Positions 50,769 to 64,000 of a DNA stretch of 64,000 bases are shown in pieces. Position numbers and translations under genes: made by a program. The notes under the pieces are model-generated. The model did no database searches. It saw nothing but the letters and a program-made list of their open reading frames with translations, and had not been told where the DNA came from. Location: the NCBI GenBank assembly GCA_963817895.1, contig CAWFQB010000006.1, positions 288,001-352,000 of the forward strand, in the 5' to 3' direction. The DNA comes from an uncultured Chthonomonadaceae bacterium. GTDB lineage: Bacteria > Armatimonadota > Chthonomonadetes > Chthonomonadales > Chthonomonadaceae. Every line of letters begins with the position of its first letter. The stretch's first letter is position 1.

Positions 50769-50775
50769 GCGTTTT

Positions 50776-50966
50776 ACCTCACCCCAACCCCTCTCCTTGC
50801 CGCGCAACGCGCTAGGAGAGGGGCTTTTTTGCTTGCCAGTTCTGGTGAAAAGAGGCATATTACTACACGTTTAACGCGCAATACTGGAATGTGAACGAAA
50901 GTAAAACAACTAAAATAGCCCCTCTCCTAGCGCGTTGCGCGGCAAGGAGAGGGGTTGGGGTGAGGT
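50776..50966. repeat. Perfect 50 bp inverted pair of REP-like hairpins
   Basis: ACCTCACCCCAACCCCTCTCCTTGCCGCGCAACGCGCTAGGAGAGGGGCT at 50776-50825, inverted at 50917-50966. Confidence 0.92.
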
Positions 50967-50970
50967 GAAT

Positions 50971-54290: not shown

Positions 54291-54704
54291 ATGCTGCGCG
54301 AACGCGCGGCAAATGGAAAAGGAACCGCATTGGGTACGAAAATCGCATTGCTTGTGCTGATGGCTGTTTGTGGCGGTGGGTGGGGCTATGTGGCCTGGAT
54401 GAAGCGGCGTCTGGATGTTGCGCTCAAAATGTTGGAAGAGCAGAAGACCCGGCAGCGCAGTCTGTCCGCGTCCTATGGCCGCATTACGGAACAATGGTTT
54501 CCCCTGATGGACAAGTACCCGTATGATTCCGCCAATTTCCGTTTTCTCGGCACGCCCGTAGATGGCGTTCAGTTCGAGGAAGACAGGATCGTATTCATCG
54601 AGTTTAAGTCCAACCGCTCGGAACTCTCTTCGGCGCAAAAGAAATTGAAGAAAATGGTCGAGTCGGGCAAGGTGACGTGGGAGGAGTTTCATTTCAATGA
54701 GTGA
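54291..54704 (+). CDS. Holliday-junction-resolvase-like PD-(D/E)xK endonuclease with an N-terminal membrane helix
   Basis: GRITEQWFP, FRFLGTPVDGVQF, FIEFKS...LSSAQ. Confidence 0.8.
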   Translation: MLRERAANGKGTALGTKIALLVLMAVCGGGWGYVAWMKRRLDVALKMLEEQKTRQRSLSASYGRITEQWFPLMDKYPYDSANFRFLGTPVDGVQFEEDRIVFIEFKSNRSELSSAQKKLKKMVESGKVTWEEFHFNE

Positions 54705-55980
54705 GGAGAAGATAGGGAAAAGGGAAGAGGGAAAAGGGAAAAGAGGGAGCGCTACTTTGCATGATGGAAACGAGACGGAAGCGCAGTCTTCCTTTTCCCT
54801 TTTTCCTTTTCCCTCTTCCCTTCCCCTGCTTATTCTCGGGCTGATGTCCGGCACGTCCGTAGATGGGATTGACGCTGCGCTGGTGGAGTTTGCGGGTCAG
54901 GGCGATACATTGACGTGGAACTTGCGCGGGTTTTCGTGTGTCGCGTGGCCTGCGGAATTGCGGGGGCGATTCTGGATGCCTGCCGCCCGGATGCGCCGTT
55001 GCAAACGATTACCGCGCTCAATGTTCGGATTGGCGAGGAGTTTGCAGAGGCGGCGCGAATCGCGGCGGAAAACGCGGGCGTTGCGCTGTCCGACGTGGAT
55101 TGTATCGCTTCGCACGGGCAAACGGTATGGCATCAGCCAACTCCGTTTGACATTGCGGGCATGGCGGTGACGGGAACGCTGCAAATCGGGGAACCGAGCG
55201 TGATTGCCCAACGGACGGGCTGCGTGGTTGTGGCGGATTTTCGTCCGGCGGATATGGCGGCAGGCGGGCAGGGAGCGCCGCTTGTGCCGTTTGCCGATTA
55301 CGCGCTCTTCCATTCCGCGCAGGAAACCCGCGCAGTTCAGAACATCGGCGGCATCGCAAACGTGACGTATCTGCCGGCAAAGGGCGTATTGGAAGACGTA
55401 ATCGCGTTCGACACGGGGCCGGGAAATATGCTGCTGGACGCGCTGGCGCAAACGGTAAGCGAAGGCCATTTGAATTACGATGCAGAAGGCGGCATGGCGG
55501 CGCGGGGGCATGTCTGCGTTCCATTGCTCAACCGCTTTTTAGAGGACGATTATTTTGCCCTGCCGCCACCCAAAACAACGGGGCGCGAACGGTTCGGACA
55601 GGCTTACGCCGAGCGATTTTATCAGGAATCGCAAAAACATGGCTGCAAGAGTGACGACATTCTGGCAACGGCGACTCGCCTGACAGCGGAAATTATAGCC
55701 TGCGCTTATGCGGATTGGCTGCTGCCGCGTGGAAGGATTGACACGGTAATAGTCGGCGGTGGGGGCGTCCAAAATTTAACGCTGATGCGGCATTTGCGCG
55801 AACAGCTGCTGCCCGGCGCGTATCACCACTCATGCCGAATTTGGCCTGCCCGATGACGCTAAAGAAGCCGTCGCGTTCGCGCTGCTGGCGTATGAAACCC
55901 TGCATGGCCGCCCGTCAAACGCGCCTTCAGCAACAGGCGCAAAACAAGCGGTGATTTTAGGGAAGATTGTTTTGCCTTGA
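54697..55980 (+). CDS. anmK: Anhydro-N-acetylmuramic acid kinase (2 frameshifts)
   Basis: [60 protein letters not shown]. Confidence 0.95.
54714..54825. repeat. AGGGAAA heptamer inverted repeat within the anmK 5' end
   Basis: AGGGAAA-type units at 54714-54743 and TTTCCCT-type units at 54792-54825. Confidence 0.8.
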
Positions 55981-56006
55981 CAAACGCCTGCCGGGTAGAA
56001 TATAAT
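55977..56006 (+). promoter_or_regulatory. sigma70-type promoter for purA
   Basis: TTGACA-N18-TATAAT. Confidence 0.7.
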
Positions 56007-56193
56007 TGACAAAGTGGTTAGGCCAGGCCCTCAAATGGATAGCGCATGCTATCCATTTTGCGTTGAGGGACTCAGCAATCGCCTCCGAATCCCCTCTCAC
56101 GTCCATTCCTGATTTAAGCGGCTGTAGTTGCGCGCGGCTGTTTAGAATGGCGAACCTGGCGGAGGGAAAAGGGAGGAACGGACCGCCCCGAAG

Positions 56194-56253
56194 TGAAGGA
56201 TGAAGGAGGAAGGATGAAGGATGAATGGGTATTGTGCTTCATCCTTCATCCTT
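56194..56253. repeat. GAAGGAT heptamer inverted repeat
   Basis: TGAAGGATGAAGGAGGAAGGATGAAGGATGAA...TTCATCCTTCATCCTT. Confidence 0.8.
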
Positions 56254-56291
56254 TGAGCGGTTACGTCTCGTCCGGGGTAGGAGAGCGATAG

Positions 56292-57596
<1,305 letters not shown>

Positions 57597-57599
57597 TTG

Positions 57600-57667
57600 A
57601 CCTCACTGGGCGTTCACTTGTGGACATACTGCCTCTCCTAGCCGCGCAACGCGCTAGGAGAGGGGCT
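57600..57667. repeat. Variant copy of the 50776 REP-like hairpin, probably also the purA terminator
   Basis: CCTCTCCTAGCCGCGCAACGCGCTAGGAGAGGGGCT followed by a T-run. Confidence 0.8.
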
Positions 57668-57717
57668 TTTCCCTCTGGCGCGACCCGCGCTTTCTGTGGA
57701 GAGTTTAGAAAATGAGG

Positions 57718-57747
57718 TTGACAGATGAGCCAGATTTGGGGTAGCAT
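57718..57747 (+). promoter_or_regulatory. Probable tRNA promoter
   Basis: TTGACA-N18-TAGCAT. Confidence 0.5.
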
Positions 57748-57792
57748 AAAGGAGTGTGTAGGAAGCGCGGAAATAATATTTCGGGCTGATAC

Positions 57793-57868
57793 GAGAGCAT
57801 AGCTCAGTCGGTAGAGCAACGCCCTTTTAAGGCGTGGGCCCTGGGTTCGAGTCCCAGTGCTCTCACCA
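57793..57868 (+). tRNA. tRNA-Lys(UUU)
   Basis: 76 nt cloverleaf; acceptor GAGAGCA/TGCTCTC, anticodon arm ACGCC-CTTTTAA-GGCGT, TTCGA T-loop, encoded CCA. Confidence 0.97.
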
Positions 57869-57879
57869 TTGGAAACAAT

Positions 57880-57917
57880 CAGGAGCGGCATCAAGTGTTT
57901 ACTTGATGCCGCTCCTG
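57880..57917. terminator. Hairpin between the tRNA and the convergent PEP-CTERM gene
   Basis: CAGGAGCGGCATCAAGT-GTTT-ACTTGATGCCGCTCCTG. Confidence 0.75.
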
Positions 57918-57950
57918 TACGTTTGGAGGCTTACTTTGCCTGGGCAGAAT

Positions 57951-58538
57951 TCAGGCGGCGTTGCGGGCCTGTTTGCGGCGGCGCAGGAAGGCGGCTCCGG
58001 CGAGGCTCAGGCCGGTTAGGAGGGCGAGAGAGCCGGGTTCGGGCACGGCGGCAGGGCGGAAACTCGTCAGTGCCAACGGATTGCCACCTCCCTCAGCGGT
58101 TGCGATTGTTTTAGGGGAAATACCGCGAGGTGCGCCGGAACCGTTATTGCCAAACAGGTTGAAGTCACCAAAGTTGGACTGGCCCACCAACTCCTGCGAG
58201 AAGTCTACCGGCCCTGGCTCCAAGCTTAAGCGATACCCCCCGCCTGAGACGCTGGAAGCGGAACCATCGAAATCCGACAGGGTGAACGTACCATTTCCCG
58301 AAGTGGCTCCCGAAATGGTGAGTGTCAGCGCCGTAATGAAGTTGCTTCCTCTCTGAAAGTTAATACCCGGATTGTTGATGAGCGACTCATCGAGGGTAAC
58401 AGTCCCGGTTCCCACAGCGGAATTGCCGTTGGGCGCTCCTGAATAGGACAGGTCGAAGGTAGCAATCTGCGCGTGAGCAGTGGAAGCGTACAGGGCAAGA
58501 CAAGCAAAGCAGGCAAGAGCGAGTTTCGCAAAACGCAT
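57951..58538 (-). CDS. PEP-CTERM sorting-domain protein 1
   Basis: AAGGAG RBS, signal peptide ending AHAQ, VPEPGSLALL-hydrophobic helix-LRRRK. Confidence 0.93.
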   Translation of the reverse strand: MRFAKLALACFACLALYASTAHAQIATFDLSYSGAPNGNSAVGTGTVTLDESLINNPGINFQRGSNFITALTLTISGATSGNGTFTLSDFDGSASSVSGGGYRLSLEPGPVDFSQELVGQSNFGDFNLFGNNGSGAPRGISPKTIATAEGGGNPLALTSFRPAAVPEPGSLALLTGLSLAGAAFLRRRKQARNAA

Positions 58539-58620
58539 AAACAAAACTCCTTTGTGAGAAGGGATGAAAGCATACAGAAGCGGCGAGGGTATCCAAAAGA
58601 CTACCGTTACCTCTATGTAT

Positions 58621-58637
58621 TGCAAGATTCATGCCAA
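58621..58637 (-). promoter_or_regulatory. sigma54 -24/-12 promoter
   Basis: TTGGCATGAATCTTGCA on the minus strand (GG-N10-GC). Confidence 0.8.
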
Positions 58638-58899
58638 ACCGCCACTTTTGCGCCCTTTGCTCAATTATTTCTGCAAAATCCCGCATTTCGCCATTGGAGA
58701 AACATTTCAGCAGACACAAACTTACGCACACATGGGACTGTACAAACATGCGGCTTGTGGCTTTGGCAGGGAAGGGGATAGACTTGCGCCTGACTTTATG
58801 GAAGCACGAAGCCCCTGCAAGTCTCGCAACTCCTCCTCGGCGTATCAAGCCGTTACTTGATGCCGTTTGAGAAGGGAAATCCACGCAAATTCGCTGTTT

Positions 58900-58968
58900 T
58901 CAGTCGGTAGAGCAACGCCCTTTTAAGGCGTGGGCCCTGGGTTCGAGTCCCAGTGCTCTCACCATTGG
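58900..58968 (+). repeat. att-like perfect copy of tRNA-Lys from nt 12 to CCA+4
   Basis: Lacks the 5' acceptor strand; identical to 57804-57872. Confidence 0.93.
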
Positions 58969-58979
58969 TTGATAAGCGT

Positions 58980-59011
58980 GACGGGGTAGAGTATCCAACT
59001 CTACCCCGTCA
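58980..59011. terminator. Hairpin after the att copy
   Basis: TGACGGGGTAGAG...CTCTACCCCGTCA. Confidence 0.65.
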
Positions 59012-59093
59012 TTCGTTTGGGCAGAGTTTCAGACTCTAACGGGCAACGTCTCCGCGATAAAGTACGCTTACAACCCGATTGGAGAACCAAACG

Positions 59094-59880
59094 ATGCTTC
59101 TACACGATGCCGTCGCCGATTACCTGCGCTTCCTCAAACATGAGCAGACGCGCAACGGTGACCACCTTCCGCACCTATCAAAGCGGATTGAACAGTTTCC
59201 TGCGCTGGCTGACGGAAAACGGCCATGCCAACGCTTCTGCGTTCGACTTCAACGTTTCCACCCTGCGCCGCTATCTGTACTTTCACAGTGAGCGCGGTCT
59301 GCGGCCCCGGACGCTGCGCGGCAGGTTCCATCCTATCAAGGCGCTGGCGACCTTCCTTGTCAACAACGGAGCCATGCAAGCCGACCCGACCAAAGCCATT
59401 ACCCTGCCGAAGAAAGACTTGGCGCAACGCCTGACGGTCAGCACAGAAGAAGTCTGCGCCCTGCTGGACGCCTGCGAACGGGTTGCCGACTTGCAGCGCG
59501 TGGCAATGTACCGCGTCGTTCTTTCGGTTCTCATCTTCGGCGGGCTGCGCCGTCAGGAGTGCCTTGATCTGTGCGTAGCGGATTACGACGCCGGGGAGGG
59601 TTGCTTGATTGTGCAGCATGGCAAGGGCAACAAGCGGCGAACCGTGTACCTGTGCGATCAGGCGCGGCAATCCCTTGATGAATGGGTTGTGCTGCGTCCG
59701 AAGGGCAGTTCCCTCGACTGGCTGTTCCTGCTCGACAGAAGCCGCAGGGTAGGACAGGACGCGCTTGCAAACCTGTTGGAAGAAGTAAAAGCCATTGCGG
59801 GGTTGTGGGGCGCGACGAACACGGCAGTTCTGCGATACAGCCAGAAAGCCGCCGCCCTTGACTGCATGAAGCTGCTGTAA
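59094..59880 (+). pseudogene. XerC/D-like tyrosine integrase, C-terminally damaged (also a frameshift near 59150)
   Basis: SAM-like N-domain (DYLRFLK, TFRTYQSGL), GLRRQECLDL (catalytic R), HGKGNKRRTV (K); HxxR and LGH motifs absent. Confidence 0.85.
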
Positions 59881-60384
59881 GACAAACAAAGAGGGCTTAG
59901 GAGAACGCCAATTCCCCCAAGCCCCTCCCGATTGACACCGGGAAAAGTTCAAACATGAGAAGCCTGAACTGTTCCCATTCTACCCAATGGAAGGGAACCA
60001 AAACAATGCCTGCCTCGAAAATACCGCGCCCCTTGCGCCGTGCCGCCCGCTGGACCGACACGACGGCCTACGAAGTCACCGAAGCTGCAAAGATCAACAG
60101 CCTGCCCGATACGCCCCTCCCTTACGAACTGACACTTGCCGGGAGAGGCGAATACCTGCCGACACAGGGCAAGTTCAAAGAAGGAAGCCGTTCGCCTGTT
60201 CGCGCGCAGCTAATCGCTACCATCGCAAGACAGCCCGCAAGTCTCACCCCTTCCGGCCTGTACCAGAGTATCCCTGTGGACTCCGCAAAGTCCTGTGCGC
60301 GAAGGTTGACGTTCACAGGGCATAATAACGATGCGTGTAAAATAAATTACTGTATTTTCATGAAAGTATAGCAAAGCTAGCGGT

Positions 60385-60401
60385 TTGGCATGAATTATGC
60401 A
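60385..60401 (+). promoter_or_regulatory. sigma54 -24/-12 promoter
   Basis: TTGGCATGAATTATGCA (GG-N10-GC). Confidence 0.7.
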
Positions 60402-60625
60402 ATATGAGTTATAAATGGCAGCTTAATCTATGCCGAAATCCTGCTGCATTTCTCTGCGCCGTGGTCTTTTCAACTTGTAGGAGTTTTGTAGGAGTGTAAT
60501 GGCTATAATGTTCATGGCAGGGACGTCACAAACGATTTGACGCGCAGGAACATCCTTTTCGGCTATCTTCTGCCCTTCCTGATTATTGTGTTCTCACGAC
60601 ATGTTTTCACAAAGGAGATTTTCTC

Positions 60626-61408
60626 ATGCGCTACGGTAAACTAACGCTTGCATTTCTGCTCCTGGGCGGCTGCCTCTCTCATGCCGCGCAAGCCCAGTTC
60701 GTCTTCCCCAATCGCACCTCATCTTTCGATGTGACCTTCTCCAGTAACGACTTCTCCAACGCCAACGCCTTTTACCAGGTGACGCAAGACGCTTACTCAA
60801 CCAGTGGCCCTGCCACAGCTCCTGGCTATGGCATCAATCTAAAATCTGACCATTCGGGCTTGGCGTGGACAGGCTACGGGGGAACTGCTGTCTCCAACAT
60901 TGCGGAGACCTCGAACTTCGCCACGTCGGATCTGACCAGTGATGGAACCGTTGGCGGTTATACATTCAACTACAACACTCCCGAAGAAACCGGTTTTAAC
61001 AACAATGGGGGGTCGTTCGGCAATACCTGGATAGTTCGTCGAAACTTCGGCGGTCTCATTGGGCTGGAGTTTCAGGGTGGGGGAAGCGGCCTTATCGATG
61101 CCAACGGCTCTTATGCGCTAGATGTGTTGATCAACGGCGATTGGTCAAATCAGGGAACCGGGCCGCTCCAGACGGAATTTATTGGCATCAATCCCGCTTG
61201 GACCGTTGATACGAATTTTGTCTTCAATGGGACCAACACAGAATTCCGCGCACATGTCAGTCCCTACAACGCGCAGGACCCTAACCTGGACTTCATTCTT
61301 CACGGTACGGTAACCGTAACCCCTGAACCCTCCACGCTCGCCTTCCTGACCTGCTCTGCCCTGACCGGAGCCGCCTTCCTGCGCCGCCGCCGCAAAACAC
61401 GCGCGTAA
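60626..61408 (+). CDS. PEP-CTERM sorting-domain protein 2
   Basis: AAGGAG RBS, signal peptide ending AQAQ, TPEPSTLAFL-hydrophobic helix-LRRRRK. Confidence 0.93.
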   Translation: MRYGKLTLAFLLLGGCLSHAAQAQFVFPNRTSSFDVTFSSNDFSNANAFYQVTQDAYSTSGPATAPGYGINLKSDHSGLAWTGYGGTAVSNIAETSNFATSDLTSDGTVGGYTFNYNTPEETGFNNNGGSFGNTWIVRRNFGGLIGLEFQGGGSGLIDANGSYALDVLINGDWSNQGTGPLQTEFIGINPAWTVDTNFVFNGTNTEFRAHVSPYNAQDPNLDFILHGTVTVTPEPSTLAFLTCSALTGAAFLRRRRKTRA

Positions 61409-61444
61409 CGCCGCCTGAGCGTCACGCACAGCCAATGCAACAAA

Positions 61445-61481
61445 TCAGCCACAGCACCCGTCAAGGAGTTCTGTGGCTGAT
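61445..61481. terminator. Stem-loop after PEP-CTERM gene 2
   Basis: TCAGCCACAG...CTGTGGCTGA. Confidence 0.55.
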
Positions 61482-62100
61482 GTAGCTTTGGCACATATAT
61501 CCGCCGGTACATGTACCAGTGTCAGTAAAGAAAAGCCCCGCCTGTCGCAGAAAATACATCACGCGCAAAAAGACAGGTAGGACAACAAACATGGAGTACG
61601 AAGCTAGCCAGAACAACGCCCTTGCCGCCCTGCTGCGTGACACGCCCGCCGACACGCTGGACGCCATGCGCCTGCATCTGTTCCCGCCAACATTCAGGCC
61701 ATTCTAATCCACGCCGAACCACGCAGAACATCAAACGCCCCGCTCCATGTCACCTGACGCGAAACCGGGGCATATTCGCTGCACATCATGCAGACCGATG
61801 TACACATTAATATTTTAGATGAGGAACCGTGCGCCGACTGTTCACCCGAAGAATGGCGATAAGAGGCAGCGTACAGAATCATGGTTTTCTCCAATTGGAG
61901 AAAATTTCACGCAGACGCTTTTGAGCAACACTATTCAACGCACACCCTTCCAGCTTGCGCAATATTTCCGTAGTATCTATAATGGAATTGACTTTACCTG
62001 TGGAACTGCCCGGTCAAAGTCCCGCCTTTCGCGCCATCGGCCTAGAGCTTCCAACTCTTACCCGGCGAGCGTCAAGGTCATACACCCCGAATACAGCTTT

Positions 62101-62164
62101 TCAGTCGGTAGAGCAACGCCCTATTATGGCGTGGGTTCCAGCTTCGAGTTCCGGTGTTCTCACA
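62101..62164 (+). repeat. Degenerate att-like copy of the tRNA-Lys 3' part
   Basis: TCAGTCGGTAGAGCAACGCCCT exact, then mutated anticodon loop (CTATTAT), T arm and acceptor strand. Confidence 0.88.
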
Positions 62165-62245
62165 AACAAAATATAGGGAGCGGTGTCAGGTAAAAACTTG
62201 ACTCCGCTTTTGTACGTTTGGCAGATGCGTATGTACATGCAAAGG

Positions 62246-62912
62246 TCAGGCGGCGTTGCAGGCCTGTTTGCGACGGCGCAGCAAGGCGGCTCCGACTGCG
62301 CTCATACCCATAAGAAGGGCGATACTGCCGGGTTCGGGAACGGCGGTGGGTGTCACGACGATGTTGTCAAACTGATAGTAGTTACCACCAGAGCCAAAAA
62401 TTAACGGATGTGAGATTGGTGAAATCGCTGCCGAAGGGGAGAGTTTCGAGACTGTTGTTAGTTCCATGCGTGTAGGTCTTTGTCACCGTCGCGCCACCGG
62501 CCTTGTTGCCGGTGAAAATGACTGTCGCGCCCTGAGGCACAACAGATTGCAGAAGTACGTTGGCAAGATCAACGGAATTCAGGTTAAACAAATTGCCGTT
62601 GTTTTGTGTCAGTATCTTCGCGCTTATATCTGTAACGGTATAAAGCGCCACGGAACCAGTATAGTTATAGCCGATGCTGTTACCGTTAGGGGCAACGCTC
62701 TCGAGGGGATTAGTTTTGGAGGTGTTTGTGACGGTGAAGCCATTTTGGGTAACAGAAAAGCCCTGCGAATTGTCGCCGTCACTGTTAATGGGATTAGGAA
62801 GAGAGTTGAAGTCGAGCGTCACCTGGGCGTGGGCAGGAAGGGAGAAGAGGGACAACGCGCCAAGAGCGCAGGAACCAAACGCAGCAGCAAGGCCGGAATG
62901 GCGAGAACACAT
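62246..62912 (-). CDS. PEP-CTERM sorting-domain protein 3 (frameshift in homopolymer near 62398)
   Basis: AAGGAG RBS, signal ending AHAQ; ORFs 62382..62978 and 62246..62467 join; VPEPGSIALL...LRRRKQACNAA. Confidence 0.9.
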
Positions 62913-62990
62913 GAAAGTAACTCCTTTGGGAAAACAGGTGAAAGCAGAGAAGCAGTAGGGCATCCAAGAGACTACCATTACCTGTACTCT

Positions 62991-63007
62991 TGCAAGATTT
63001 ATGCCAA
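62991..63007 (-). promoter_or_regulatory. sigma54 -24/-12 promoter
   Basis: TTGGCATAAATCTTGCA on the minus strand. Confidence 0.8.
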
Positions 63008-63084
63008 CCGGCTACATTCACGCCAATTCCCTGTTAATTCCTGCAAAAATTCATGTTCCGCCAGTGGTTAAGAGATAATCGTCA

Positions 63085-63726
63085 CTACATTCGGAGAACG
63101 ATTGAACAATTTTCGCAAAGTTTGAGTTTCCCACGTTTACGACGGCGCAGGAGGGTGGCTCCGGTGAGGGTTAGGCCAGCGAGGAGGGCGCCAAAACCGG
63201 GTTCAGGGACTACAGCAAGGTTATCAACAAGATAACTCAAATCGTCGCCGTTTCGCTCCGCGCTGATAGTAATCGTTGCCGTGCTTGTGGGAGCCACAAA
63301 ATTCACGCTGAACGGTTTGTAGGCCGTGGAAGTGTTGTCGGCAAAAGGGCGCGCGAATTGCGAGATGAGAACCCCATTCACAGACACGCCGAAAGACAGG
63401 GCCATGAAACTTCCAAACTGAGGCTGATAACTGGCATAATCGCCTGAGAAGCGATAAGTATTGCCAACGGTGAAGCCAGACACTGTTTGAGAAAGGGTCG
63501 GGTCGGTGGCAACTTCACCAAACGCGTTGAGGCGGAAGGCTGCGCCAGGGTTGCCACCCGTGGTTTGCCGGAGGTTGTCAGCTCCGCTGGAAGTATATCC
63601 TCCGCCTGTGCCATTGCCGGGAACGTCTGTGTCGAACGTGCCGTTGACAAAAGTTTGCGCATGGGCCATTGGAGCCAGACACAAAAAACTTACCACAAGC
63701 AATGTTGTGTGGCGATTACAATTCAT
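63085..63726 (-). CDS. PEP-CTERM sorting-domain protein 4 (DUF642-like core possible)
   Basis: AGGAG RBS, signal ending AHAQ, FVNGTFD, VPEPGFGALL-hydrophobic helix-LRRRKR. Confidence 0.9.
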   Translation of the reverse strand: MNCNRHTTLLVVSFLCLAPMAHAQTFVNGTFDTDVPGNGTGGGYTSSGADNLRQTTGGNPGAAFRLNAFGEVATDPTLSQTVSGFTVGNTYRFSGDYASYQPQFGSFMALSFGVSVNGVLISQFARPFADNTSTAYKPFSVNFVAPTSTATITISAERNGDDLSYLVDNLAVVPEPGFGALLAGLTLTGATLLRRRKRGKLKLCENCSIVLRM

Positions 63727-63943
63727 AGCAGCCTCTCCTTCCAAACGAGCGCAATGCGTTTGCGGCATATTCAACCTACAGAGTTTCAGGCGCGCCTTTT
63801 TGTAGAACAACAGGCATAGAGCCACGAAAATAAGCGGTAGGTCTGTTAAAATTATGAGAATATCTCATAAAAACTACGCGAAATTAGAGATATGCGGGTA
63901 CGCTATAATCAAACTTCATGCGCATGAAGTTTCTCCTAACTTC

Positions 63944-63980
63944 GCGCCACAGGGCTTCAGGCTCCTGTGGCGCTTTTTTT
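63944..63980 (+). terminator. Intrinsic terminator
   Basis: GCGCCACAGG...CCTGTGGCGC followed by T7. Confidence 0.8.
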
Positions 63981-64000
63981 CTGACTTATGGGCCTTTGAA

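What the first reader, a model, noticed from the sequence alone, without database searches (positions are those of the whole stretch)
57793..63726. tRNA-Lys-anchored, age-ordered cassette array of PEP-CTERM surface-protein genes
Seen: the intact tRNA-Lys is followed by a perfect 69 bp copy of its 3' part (58900) and a decayed copy (62101), both starting at the same base. The only recognisable cargo is four PEP-CTERM genes and one damaged tyrosine integrase. The module after the tRNA and the module after the decayed copy share one layout: tRNA piece, homologous hairpin, reverse PEP-CTERM gene, homologous leader, sigma54 promoter. Established: tyrosine integrases duplicate tRNA 3' ends, and PEP-CTERM is the exosortase sorting signal. 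Inference: small surface-protein cassettes integrate repeatedly at one tRNA, newest nearest the tRNA, giving an integron-like way to vary the cell surface.
Basis: partly seen in the sequence, partly recalled or inferred. Interest (0 to 1): 0.85.

Follow-up and report, generated by a model that had tools for sequence, protein, structure and literature searches.

The report
Surface-protein cassettes stacked at tRNA-Lys
Small pieces of mobile DNA, each carrying a different cell-surface protein gene, are stacked behind a lysine tRNA gene of a soil bacterium, and they were likely put there by an integrase family that is predicted to cut tRNA genes at an unusual spot next to the D arm, which would let it hop between many different tRNAs.

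Summary
The repeats and genes are real. Two tRNA-bounded elements lie in tandem: a 1,096-bp integrase-less PEP-CTERM cassette and a 3,201-bp one with a broken XerC-like integrase. Two more PEP-CTERM genes lie beyond the last tRNA copy with no closing site. One sister genome is empty here and another holds a different cassette. The same leader-and-tail frame with unrelated middles sits at tRNA-Asp and tRNA-Phe, the latter with an intact integrase. This is tandem accretion of satellite-like integrative elements, a known kind; it is not an integron. The new part is the recombination site. Displaced tRNA copies start at nt 12-16. Paired copies of the D-arm motif, 7 bp apart, sit at fixed distances in both arms. 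Integrases 93% identical use tRNA-Pro and tRNA-Val. Together these point to a crossover at tRNA nt 25-31, outside the three catalogued sub-sites. That position is inferred, not shown; no circle or excision was seen. Outside this genus the family carries other cargo. This scan earlier noted tRNA cassette stacks and core-like arm sites on other DNA.

The parts
57793..57868 (+). tRNA-Lys(TTT), intact; left end (attL) of element E1. Proposed core site nt 18-38 = 57810-57830, proposed 7-bp overlap nt 25-31 = 57817-57823 (inferred)
57880..57917 (.). Hairpin: terminator-like on the minus strand and a dyad site (57887-57910) centred +78.5 bp from the proposed core
57951..58538 (-). PEP-CTERM gene 1 (195 aa; signal-like N-terminus read by eye, unique middle, sorting tail); only gene of E1 (unit 1,096 bp, no integrase)
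58539..58790 (.). Shared leader: RBS, sigma54 -24/-12 motif (58621-58636, minus strand), upstream conserved block, and an outward sigma70-like -35/-10 pair at 58755-58784 facing the tRNA copy (read by eye from the alignment; not found by the consensus scan)
58842..58864 (.). Dyad site of the E1 right arm, centred -63.5 bp from the proposed core; same motif as the hairpin at the E1 left end
   Evidence: (D16)
58900..58968 (+). Perfect copy of tRNA nt 12-76 plus 4 nt: junction of E1 and E2
58983..59042 (.). Two inverted pairs of the tRNA D-arm motif, each with a 7-bp spacer (58983-59007, 59018-59042); likely accessory integrase sites of E2
59094..59880 (+). Broken XerC-like tyrosine integrase without arm-binding domain: frameshift near 59147 (absent in a near-identical contig of run X2, depth 2) and loss of the part with HxxR and Tyr; 45% identical to the intact integrase at tRNA-Phe
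59872..60008 (.). Remnant shared with a prophage-like region on C7, the G002 tRNA-Phe element and metagenome element L232
60386..60401 (+). sigma54-like motif upstream of PEP-CTERM gene 2
   Evidence: (I7)
60626..61408 (+). PEP-CTERM gene 2 (260 aa), cargo of E2 (unit 3,201 bp), followed by a hairpin at 61446-61479
62039..62063 (.). Dyad site of the E2 right arm (7-bp spacer), centred -66 bp from the proposed core; homologous site in L232
62101..62165 (+). Decayed copy of tRNA nt 12-76 (54 of 65 identical, first 22 perfect): right end (attR) of E2
62174..62213 (.). Hairpin like the one behind the intact tRNA and behind tRNA-Lys of G001; dyad at 62182-62205
62246..62912 (-). PEP-CTERM gene 3, frameshifted (possibly an assembly indel); middle part 50% identical to a gene of G023; sigma54 motif at 62991-63006
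63085..63726 (-). PEP-CTERM gene 4 (213 aa), no sigma54 motif; middle part 47% identical to a gene on C9; no closing tRNA copy follows

Best explanation
The region is a stack of two small tRNA-bounded elements with PEP-CTERM cargo plus an older two-gene remnant, likely built by repeated site-specific integration into tRNA-Lys by an arm-less XerC-like integrase that is predicted to bind the D-arm motif (nt 18-24) and exchange strands at nt 25-31. Shown: the bounded units, variable content among relatives, the shared leader and tail around unrelated middles, the tRNA-linked integrase family, and dyad sites at fixed distances. Inferred: each element brings its own copy of tRNA nt 12-76, so the gene is rebuilt and the previous copy is pushed outwards, newest nearest the tRNA. 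E1 has no integrase and E2's is broken, so both would move only with an integrase supplied in trans or together with a neighbour. They are likely reduced forms of 11-15 kb relatives that carry a primase-helicase and resemble phage satellites, so transfer would be by helper phage or vesicle. The outward promoter in the right arm would drive the integrase on the circle and keep downstream tRNA genes transcribed after insertion. The cargo genes would be switched on by the host's sigma54 and anchored by its exosortases, and new middles would enter by homologous exchange between the conserved leader and tail.
For: Empty site in G001 (tRNA then about 800 bp then the gene that follows the block in G000) and a different cassette in G002 whose two ends match the E1 right end and the E2 left end. 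Same frame at tRNA-Asp (1,620-bp unit) and tRNA-Phe (4,511 bp, intact 348-aa integrase; 15.3 kb in G002). Of 86 PEP-CTERM genes, the six best matches to the E1 leader (E1 itself included) are five at these tRNAs and one in a prophage-like region; their middles give no pairwise BLASTP hit. 36 of 42 integrase loci have a tRNA gene or piece within 340 bp upstream, of 12 isotypes. Displaced 3' copies start at nt 12, 12, 12, 12, 12, 13, 15, 15, 12, 12 against the cognate tRNA of the same genome and at 12, 12, 12, 16 against non-cognate references; 5' pieces directly before an integrase end at alignment positions 30, 35, 38, 39, 43, 51, 66. Inverted D-arm half-sites with a 7-bp spacer occur in 7 of 33 flanks (0.8 expected, at most 4 in 200 shuffles; strict version 3 of 33 at spacer 7 and none at any other). 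Dyad centres lie at -63.5 to -66 (6 of 8 displaced copies) and +74 to +79 (6 of 9 Lys and 0 of 4 other sites). Integrases 93% identical over 184 aa sit at tRNA-Pro and tRNA-Val, which share nt 12-24 and differ at 25-38. 3 of 4 full-length relatives encode a D5-type primase-helicase. Three exosortase genes over the cut-off and an rpoN-like gene in three pieces are in the genome.
Against: No circle, excision junction or empty site in a population was seen; the runs found are contigs of relatives and none spans a junction. The only intact family integrase found in this 81% complete genome sits at tRNA-Phe and is 45% identical to the Lys type, and E1's dyads differ from E2's, so nothing shows that E1 can move now. 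One displaced copy (G002, tRNA-Lys CTT) starts at nt 27 and one element (G354) duplicates the whole tRNA; I read the first as set by an 18-kb upstream element that I did not characterise. The 5' pieces come from integrases only 35-47% identical and may be deletions. The half-site motif was noticed by eye before it was counted, the window is one of the 33 loci, 6- and 8-bp spacers score too (4 loci each), and E1's own dyads have 6-bp spacers; 11 of 31 flanks have no half-site. The hairpins behind the intact tRNA-Lys and tRNA-Asp resemble those of the empty genomes, so some dyads may be plain terminators. Only two same-genus genomes were available. PEP cargo was absent from the three full elements and two metagenome loci outside the genus.
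Confidence: 0.68

Rival explanations
1. Same stack of elements, but the crossover is in the D loop (nt 15-21), flanked by the D stem, as proposed for some Klebsiella islands.
For: All informative 3' copies but one start at nt 12-16, the D stem gives a natural dyad, and the decayed copy is perfect over nt 12-33. A D-loop sub-site is reported in 10.1101/2020.11.02.365908.
Against: The D-loop bases GGTA are part of the motif repeated in the arms, so they look like a bound sequence and not an overlap; 5' pieces run 10 or more bases further than this model needs.
Confidence: 0.17
2. Ordinary anticodon-loop integration with an unusually long identity block.
For: Most common sub-site (PMC4383910); four of seven 5' pieces include the whole loop; one displaced copy starts at nt 27.
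Against: Three 5' pieces end before or inside the loop (positions 30, 35, 38 of the alignment); the decayed copy has two mismatches in the loop yet none in nt 12-33; 15-20 extra bases kept on the left in 14 copies need explaining.
Confidence: 0.08
3. A dedicated integron-like system for surface variation: a resident integrase shuffles PEP-CTERM cassettes at one tRNA platform.
For: One-gene cassettes, variable content, a 1.1-kb minimal unit, and PEP cargo in all six bounded elements seen in the genus.
Against: The integrase is inside the elements, fails the IntI model, cassettes have their own promoters, three tRNAs are used, and outside the genus the cargo is restriction-modification or other genes.
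Confidence: 0.05
4. One old local duplication of tRNA piece, hairpin and PEP gene, or an assembly artefact for the perfect copy.
For: Modules 1 and 3 share layout and 72-81% identity; the assembly has many indels.
Against: The E1 leader and tail are closer to the tRNA-Asp and tRNA-Phe cassettes (tail 90-92%) than to gene 3 (78%); both flanks of the perfect copy match element ends in G002; independent contigs match gene 1 and the integrase.
Confidence: 0.02

Closest known systems
Tandem accretion of integrative elements and cis-mobilizable elements (CIMEs) (PMC5704250, passages read)
   Same: Elements in tandem at one site, decayed members without integrase that keep attL and attR.
   Different: No relaxase or conjugation genes were found here; target sub-site and cargo differ; mobilisation untested.
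Dehalococcoides ssrA genomic islands with rdhA cargo (PMC3146451, passages read)
   Same: Tandem islands bounded by repeats of the target gene, one gene family as repeated cargo, some without integration module, a distal cargo-rich region without boundaries.
   Different: Serine integrase module and a 20-bp repeat at one gene there; here a tyrosine integrase, a 65-bp repeat, several tRNAs, and surface proteins in a shared promoter-and-tail frame.
Tycheposons and PICI-like satellites (10.1101/2020.12.28.424599, passages read)
   Same: Tyrosine integrase plus primase or helicase plus cargo, partial tRNA copies between elements, newest next to the tRNA.
   Different: There each tRNA has its own integrase cluster and sites of about 40 nt; here near-identical integrases use different tRNAs and the copy begins at nt 12. 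No capsid or terminase hit; homology to tycheposon genes not tested.
tRNA integration sub-sites A, T and J (PMC4383910, passages read; Williams 2002 not held) and the D-loop sub-site in Klebsiella (10.1101/2020.11.02.365908, passages and section 11 read)
   Same: A tyrosine integrase splits a tRNA gene and the element restores it.
   Different: Identity blocks bracket nt 16-31, between the D loop and the anticodon loop; the Klebsiella D-loop cases involve P4-like integrases with an arm domain and mostly 5'-end islands.
Arm-less simple tyrosine integrases such as mycobacteriophage Brujita Int (recalled; paper not held; chain 5vfz hit at E 1.2e-12)
   Same: No arm-binding domain; extra core-like sites in the element arms (recalled).
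   Different: Distant in sequence (best solved relatives are XerA and XerD); different register on the tRNA.
PEP-CTERM/exosortase system with sigma54 leaders (PMC1569441, passages read)
   Same: Single-gene units with a sorting tail, long leader and -24/-12 motif; exosortases present.
   Different: Described there for Proteobacteria with no mention of mobile elements in the passages searched; here a subfamily rides on integrative elements.

Membership tests
Integron | IntI-type integrase | tested here: not met
   TIGR02249 34.8 bits against cut-off 265; XerC/XerD models score higher
Integron | Stationary integrase beside attI, promoterless cassettes read from Pc | tested here: not met
   Integrase lies inside tRNA-bounded units; three of four cargo genes have their own sigma54-like motif
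Integron | attC sites between cassettes | not tested
   No attC model was run; the repeats found between units are tRNA copies
CIME / tandem accretion | Unit bounded by attL- and attR-like direct repeats of the target gene | tested here: met
   E1 and E2; not met for genes 3 and 4
CIME / tandem accretion | No working integrase or transfer gene inside | tested here: met
   E1 has one gene; E2's integrase lacks HxxR and Tyr
CIME / tandem accretion | Empty site and different occupants in relatives | tested here: met
   G001 empty, G002 different cassette
CIME / tandem accretion | Excision or co-transfer with a neighbouring element | not testable with these tools
   Only contigs of relatives were found; none spans a junction
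Tycheposon / PICI-like satellite | Integrase plus primase or helicase replication module | tested here: inconclusive
   Absent from E1 and E2; D5-type primase-helicase in 3 of 4 full-length relatives, an AAA_25 protein in the fourth
Tycheposon / PICI-like satellite | Packaging genes or packaging in capsids or vesicles | tested here: inconclusive
   No capsid or terminase Pfam hit in 75 of 82 ORFs scanned; no close integrase relative among viral contigs, best 23-34%
tRNA sub-sites A, T, J | Identity block starts at the anticodon stem (A) or T arm (T, J) | tested here: not met
   14 of 15 informative displaced copies start at nt 12-16, one at nt 27
tRNA sub-sites A, T, J | Strand exchange mapped to the anticodon loop, T loop or 3' junction | not testable with these tools
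   Needs a recombination assay
PEP-CTERM/exosortase | C-terminal PEP-CTERM domain | tested here: met
   All four tails over the TIGR02595 cut-off
PEP-CTERM/exosortase | EpsH-family exosortase in the genome | tested here: met
   Three genes over the TIGR02602 cut-off
PEP-CTERM/exosortase | sigma54 motif with PrsR/PrsK regulators | tested here: inconclusive
   Motif before 19 of 86 genes against 0.8% of random windows; rpoN-like gene in three pieces under the cut-off; PrsR/PrsK not searched

The most novel reading that the evidence does not exclude
An Armatimonadota-wide family of arm-less XerC-like integrases reads the near-universal tRNA D-arm motif as one half-site and crosses over at nt 25-31, a fourth tRNA sub-site. 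Target choice then rests on a 7-bp overlap and not on the protein, so one integrase lineage hops among a dozen tRNA isotypes. In this genus the elements have shrunk to 1-kb vehicles that deliver a fixed sigma54 promoter and sorting tail around an exchangeable middle: a distributed, tRNA-docked system for swapping surface proteins.
Probability: 0.4. Interest if true: 0.75.

Novelty: new variant of a known kind. Interest (0 to 1): 0.58.

Why it matters
Island finders and integrase catalogues assume crossovers at the anticodon loop, T loop or 3' junction. A family that uses the stretch next to the D arm, and changes tRNA target with almost no change in the protein, would add a sub-site and offer a small integrase that may be retargeted through 7 bases, with a docking site present in many bacteria. 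It also gives a concrete route by which PEP-CTERM repertoires, large and mostly unexplained, turn over: whole expression units arrive on mobile elements and swap their middles. The stacking itself is ordinary island biology.

Tried and rejected
More tRNA copies beyond 64 kb: none within 20 kb. Integron reading: rejected. Rfam scan of 57600-64000: only the tRNA and its perfect copy, plus one match under its gathering score. The promoter and terminator scan was at chance level (4 and 7 found against 3.3 and 8.4) and is not used as evidence. Viral contigs: no close integrase relative and no match to the leader pattern. Sequencing runs: no RNA holder listed; two holders with small shares; no circle or empty-site joint. 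The metagenome pattern scan gave 3 loci, one an intact tRNA of another organism and two element ends; the pattern itself forces a start at nt 12, so these two were not counted for the boundary. The integrase tree is the quick version, many forks open, so no donor or order of events is claimed. The idea that several integrases break at the same codon by design was not supported: the sequences after the breaks are unrelated. Search of 1.84 billion representatives returned a graded series without context and set no family boundary. Paper searches with no paper holding all terms; two searches listed nothing on PEP-CTERM cassettes (listings only). Williams 2002, the TIGER paper and the Brujita paper were not held. 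Supplements of the bioRxiv Klebsiella preprint were not seen and may list D-arm-spanning repeats. No structure or complex was predicted.
Full report
Setting. The window is G000:C6:288001-352000, a 7.48-Mb, 14-contig, 81% complete genome. Its closest integrase relatives with a title are Chthonomonadaceae, Armatimonadota, so I place it there. Housekeeping genes next to the finding lie in several frames, so single frameshifts are not trusted.

Observation. tRNA-Lys(TTT) is at 57793-57868. Copies starting at tRNA nt 12 lie at 58900 (69 nt, 100%) and 62101 (54 of 65; first 22 perfect, chance 0.006). They cut the region into E1 (1,096 bp: hairpin, PEP-CTERM gene 1, leader), E2 (3,201 bp: broken integrase, remnant, PEP-CTERM gene 2) and an open-ended rest with genes 3 and 4. 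All four tails pass TIGR02595. No further copy lies within 20 kb. The gene that follows the block begins just past the window at about 64217 (an HD-GYP-like protein by my reading of its motifs).

Variation among relatives. In G001 (same genus, 97% complete) that gene follows tRNA-Lys after about 800 bp with no cassette. In G002 (same genus) tRNA-Lys carries one 3,078-bp unit with two other ORFs and a different PEP-CTERM gene; its left end matches the E2 left end (96% over 122 bp) and its right end the E1 right end (78% over 377 bp). The other tRNA-Lys loci fetched, from 11 contigs of other genera, show no PEP gene or copy in the DNA held; one has an integrase directly behind the tRNA. In run X1 a 343-base contig has 59 bases of tRNA-Lys, 109 other bases and then, reversed, the end of a gene 93% like gene 2, that is gene 2 in the position of gene 1; another contig is 97% like gene 1 with its leader. 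In run X2 three short contigs match the integrase region almost exactly and one lacks a base at 59147 (depth 2), so that frameshift may be an assembly error; the loss of the catalytic end (homology stops at profile position 242 of 325) is not explained that way.

The same frame elsewhere. The genome has 86 PEP-CTERM genes (95 motif hits, 9 dropped by rule); 19 have a sigma54 motif within 1.9 kb against 0.8% of random windows. Ranked by DNA similarity to the E1 leader, the top six are E1, two genes behind tRNA-Asp, one behind tRNA-Phe, one in a prophage-like region of C7, and gene 3. tRNA-Asp has a 1,620-bp unit closed by a perfect 65-nt copy and then a second open cassette; both sister genomes are empty there. 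tRNA-Phe has a 4,511-bp unit with an intact 348-aa integrase; G002 has a 15.3-kb unit at the same place with an 88% identical integrase and another PEP gene. The right ends align as RBS, sigma54 motif, conserved block, outward -35/-10 pair, then about 110 bp specific to the target tRNA. Tails are 86-92% identical among the top five, while the middles of 12 sequences give no pairwise BLASTP hit. This is the pattern expected if middles are exchanged between conserved flanks; that step is inferred.

The integrase family. It is XerC-like with only core-binding and catalytic domains; the best solved relatives are XerA and XerD. It was found in 13 of 41 relatives and 33 of 401 genomes of the phylum. 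36 of 42 loci have a tRNA gene or piece within 340 bp upstream, of 12 isotypes. Of four full-length elements with both ends (11.5-15.3 kb), three encode a D5-type primase-helicase; cargo includes restriction-modification genes, and only the same-genus one has a PEP gene. Two metagenome element ends at tRNA-Lys also lack PEP genes. So the vehicle is widespread and satellite-like, and the PEP cargo is, so far, a trait of this genus.

Where it cuts. Islander recognises three sub-sites: anticodon loop, T loop and T/acceptor junction (PMC4383910, passages). A Klebsiella preprint adds a D-loop case (10.1101/2020.11.02.365908, passages and section 11); an archaeal review notes sites that extend over the D loop (PMC8371274, passages). 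Here ten displaced copies checked against their own genome's tRNA start at nt 12 (seven), 13 (one) and 15 (two), and four checked against other references at 12, 12, 12, 16. One starts at nt 27 and one element repeats the whole gene. Seven 5' pieces that stand directly before an integrase end at alignment positions 30-66. If the family keeps one register, the overlap lies within nt 16-31. The flanks repeat the D-arm motif of nt 18-24: 36 hits against 8 expected in 31 loci, 20 loci with a hit. Inverted pairs of it peak at a 7-bp spacer: 7 of 33 loci against 0.8 expected, with 4 loci each at 6 and 8 bp; in the strict test 3 of 33 at 7 bp and none elsewhere (two sister loci, six without a tRNA and one distant locus were left out). 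In the window such pairs lie at both ends of E2 (58983, 59018, 62039). Laid on the tRNA, half-site plus 7 bp puts the overlap at nt 25-31, followed by the conserved CT of nt 32-33. Measured from there, dyads sit at -63.5 to -66 and +74 to +79 in G000, G002 and two metagenome contigs; the Asp site gave none under that filter. Two G017 integrases, 93% identical over 184 aa, sit at tRNA-Pro and tRNA-Val, which share 12 of 13 bases at nt 12-24 and differ beyond. The motif was spotted by eye before counting and kin are not independent, so I give this register about 0.6.

Mechanism. An incoming circle recombines with the intact tRNA, rebuilds it from its own copy of nt 12-76 and pushes the earlier copy outwards, as described for tycheposons (10.1101/2020.12.28.424599, passages), CIMEs (PMC5704250, passages) and Dehalococcoides ssrA islands with rdhA cargo (PMC3146451, passages). 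E2 came first and decayed; E1 came later without an integrase; genes 3 and 4 are older arrivals or residents whose boundary is gone. The age order is inferred from 100% against 83% identity; one T-stem change in the decayed copy is a compensating pair also seen in the G001 allele, so part of the gap is allelic. Expression by sigma54 and sorting by exosortase follow from PMC1569441 (passages) and from three exosortase genes and an rpoN-like gene in the genome; neither was tested.

Verdict. The stack is a new member of a known kind; the predicted D-arm-reading integrase with a crossover at nt 25-31 and the exchangeable surface-protein frame make it a new variant. Four paper searches with all terms required found nothing, but Williams 2002 and the TIGER paper could not be read, and PMC12884075 had no passage on the D arm. 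Earlier notes of this scan describe similar stacks and core-like arm sites on other DNA; a sequence look-up with the integrase found none.

Noticed in passing
L142:5062-19194 (G023:C4:843-857 kb): A head-to-tail array of about 15 PEP-CTERM-type genes with near-identical signal peptides, tails and spacers but different middles, with no tRNA or integrase in the 20 kb; one middle is 50% identical to gene 3 of the window.
   Followed up: partly
L002:5710-11480 (G000:C1:1541710-1547480): tRNA-Asp carries the same kind of stack: a 1,620-bp PEP cassette, a second open cassette, a TROVE/Ro60 gene in pieces and a third sigma54-led PEP gene.
   Followed up: yes
L003:7181-14044 (G000:C4:223181-230044): An 18-gene tRNA array whose tRNA-Phe hosts the element with the intact integrase and an IS transposase; in G001 the same place has a decayed tRNA-like stretch and a small ORF.
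   Followed up: partly
G000:C7:171000-190000 (L004, L147): Prophage-like region (methyltransferases, restriction-like genes, by my reading) that carries one PEP gene of the same frame without a tRNA copy.
   Followed up: partly
L235/L236 (G002:C63:27166 and 45226): An 18-kb element at tRNA-Lys(CTT) whose displaced copy starts at nt 27 and is followed by a family integrase: two integrase types may share one tRNA.
   Followed up: no
L094, L095, L105, L109, L110, L111, L122: Integrases preceded by only the 5' part of a tRNA, with no restored gene found in the DNA held: 5'-type or gene-damaging insertions.
   Followed up: partly
window 54697-57596: The genes upstream (anmK-like and purA-like by my reading) lie in several frames, a sign of many indel errors in this assembly.
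   Followed up: no
window 50773-50969 and 57632-57670: A 39-63 nt palindromic intergenic repeat in three copies, REP-like.
   Followed up: no
G000:C1:1406576-1406635 and C6:123899-123931: Other lone tRNA pieces: tRNA-Arg(CCG) from about nt 15, 1 Mb from its gene, and a 31-nt tRNA-Ser 3' end 1.4 kb behind its gene.
   Followed up: no
window 61887-61904: A palindrome around CTCCAATTGGAG recurs in these cassettes and at both ends of the G002 unit, about 200 bp before each tRNA copy in the window; it may be an activator or end-binding site.
   Followed up: no
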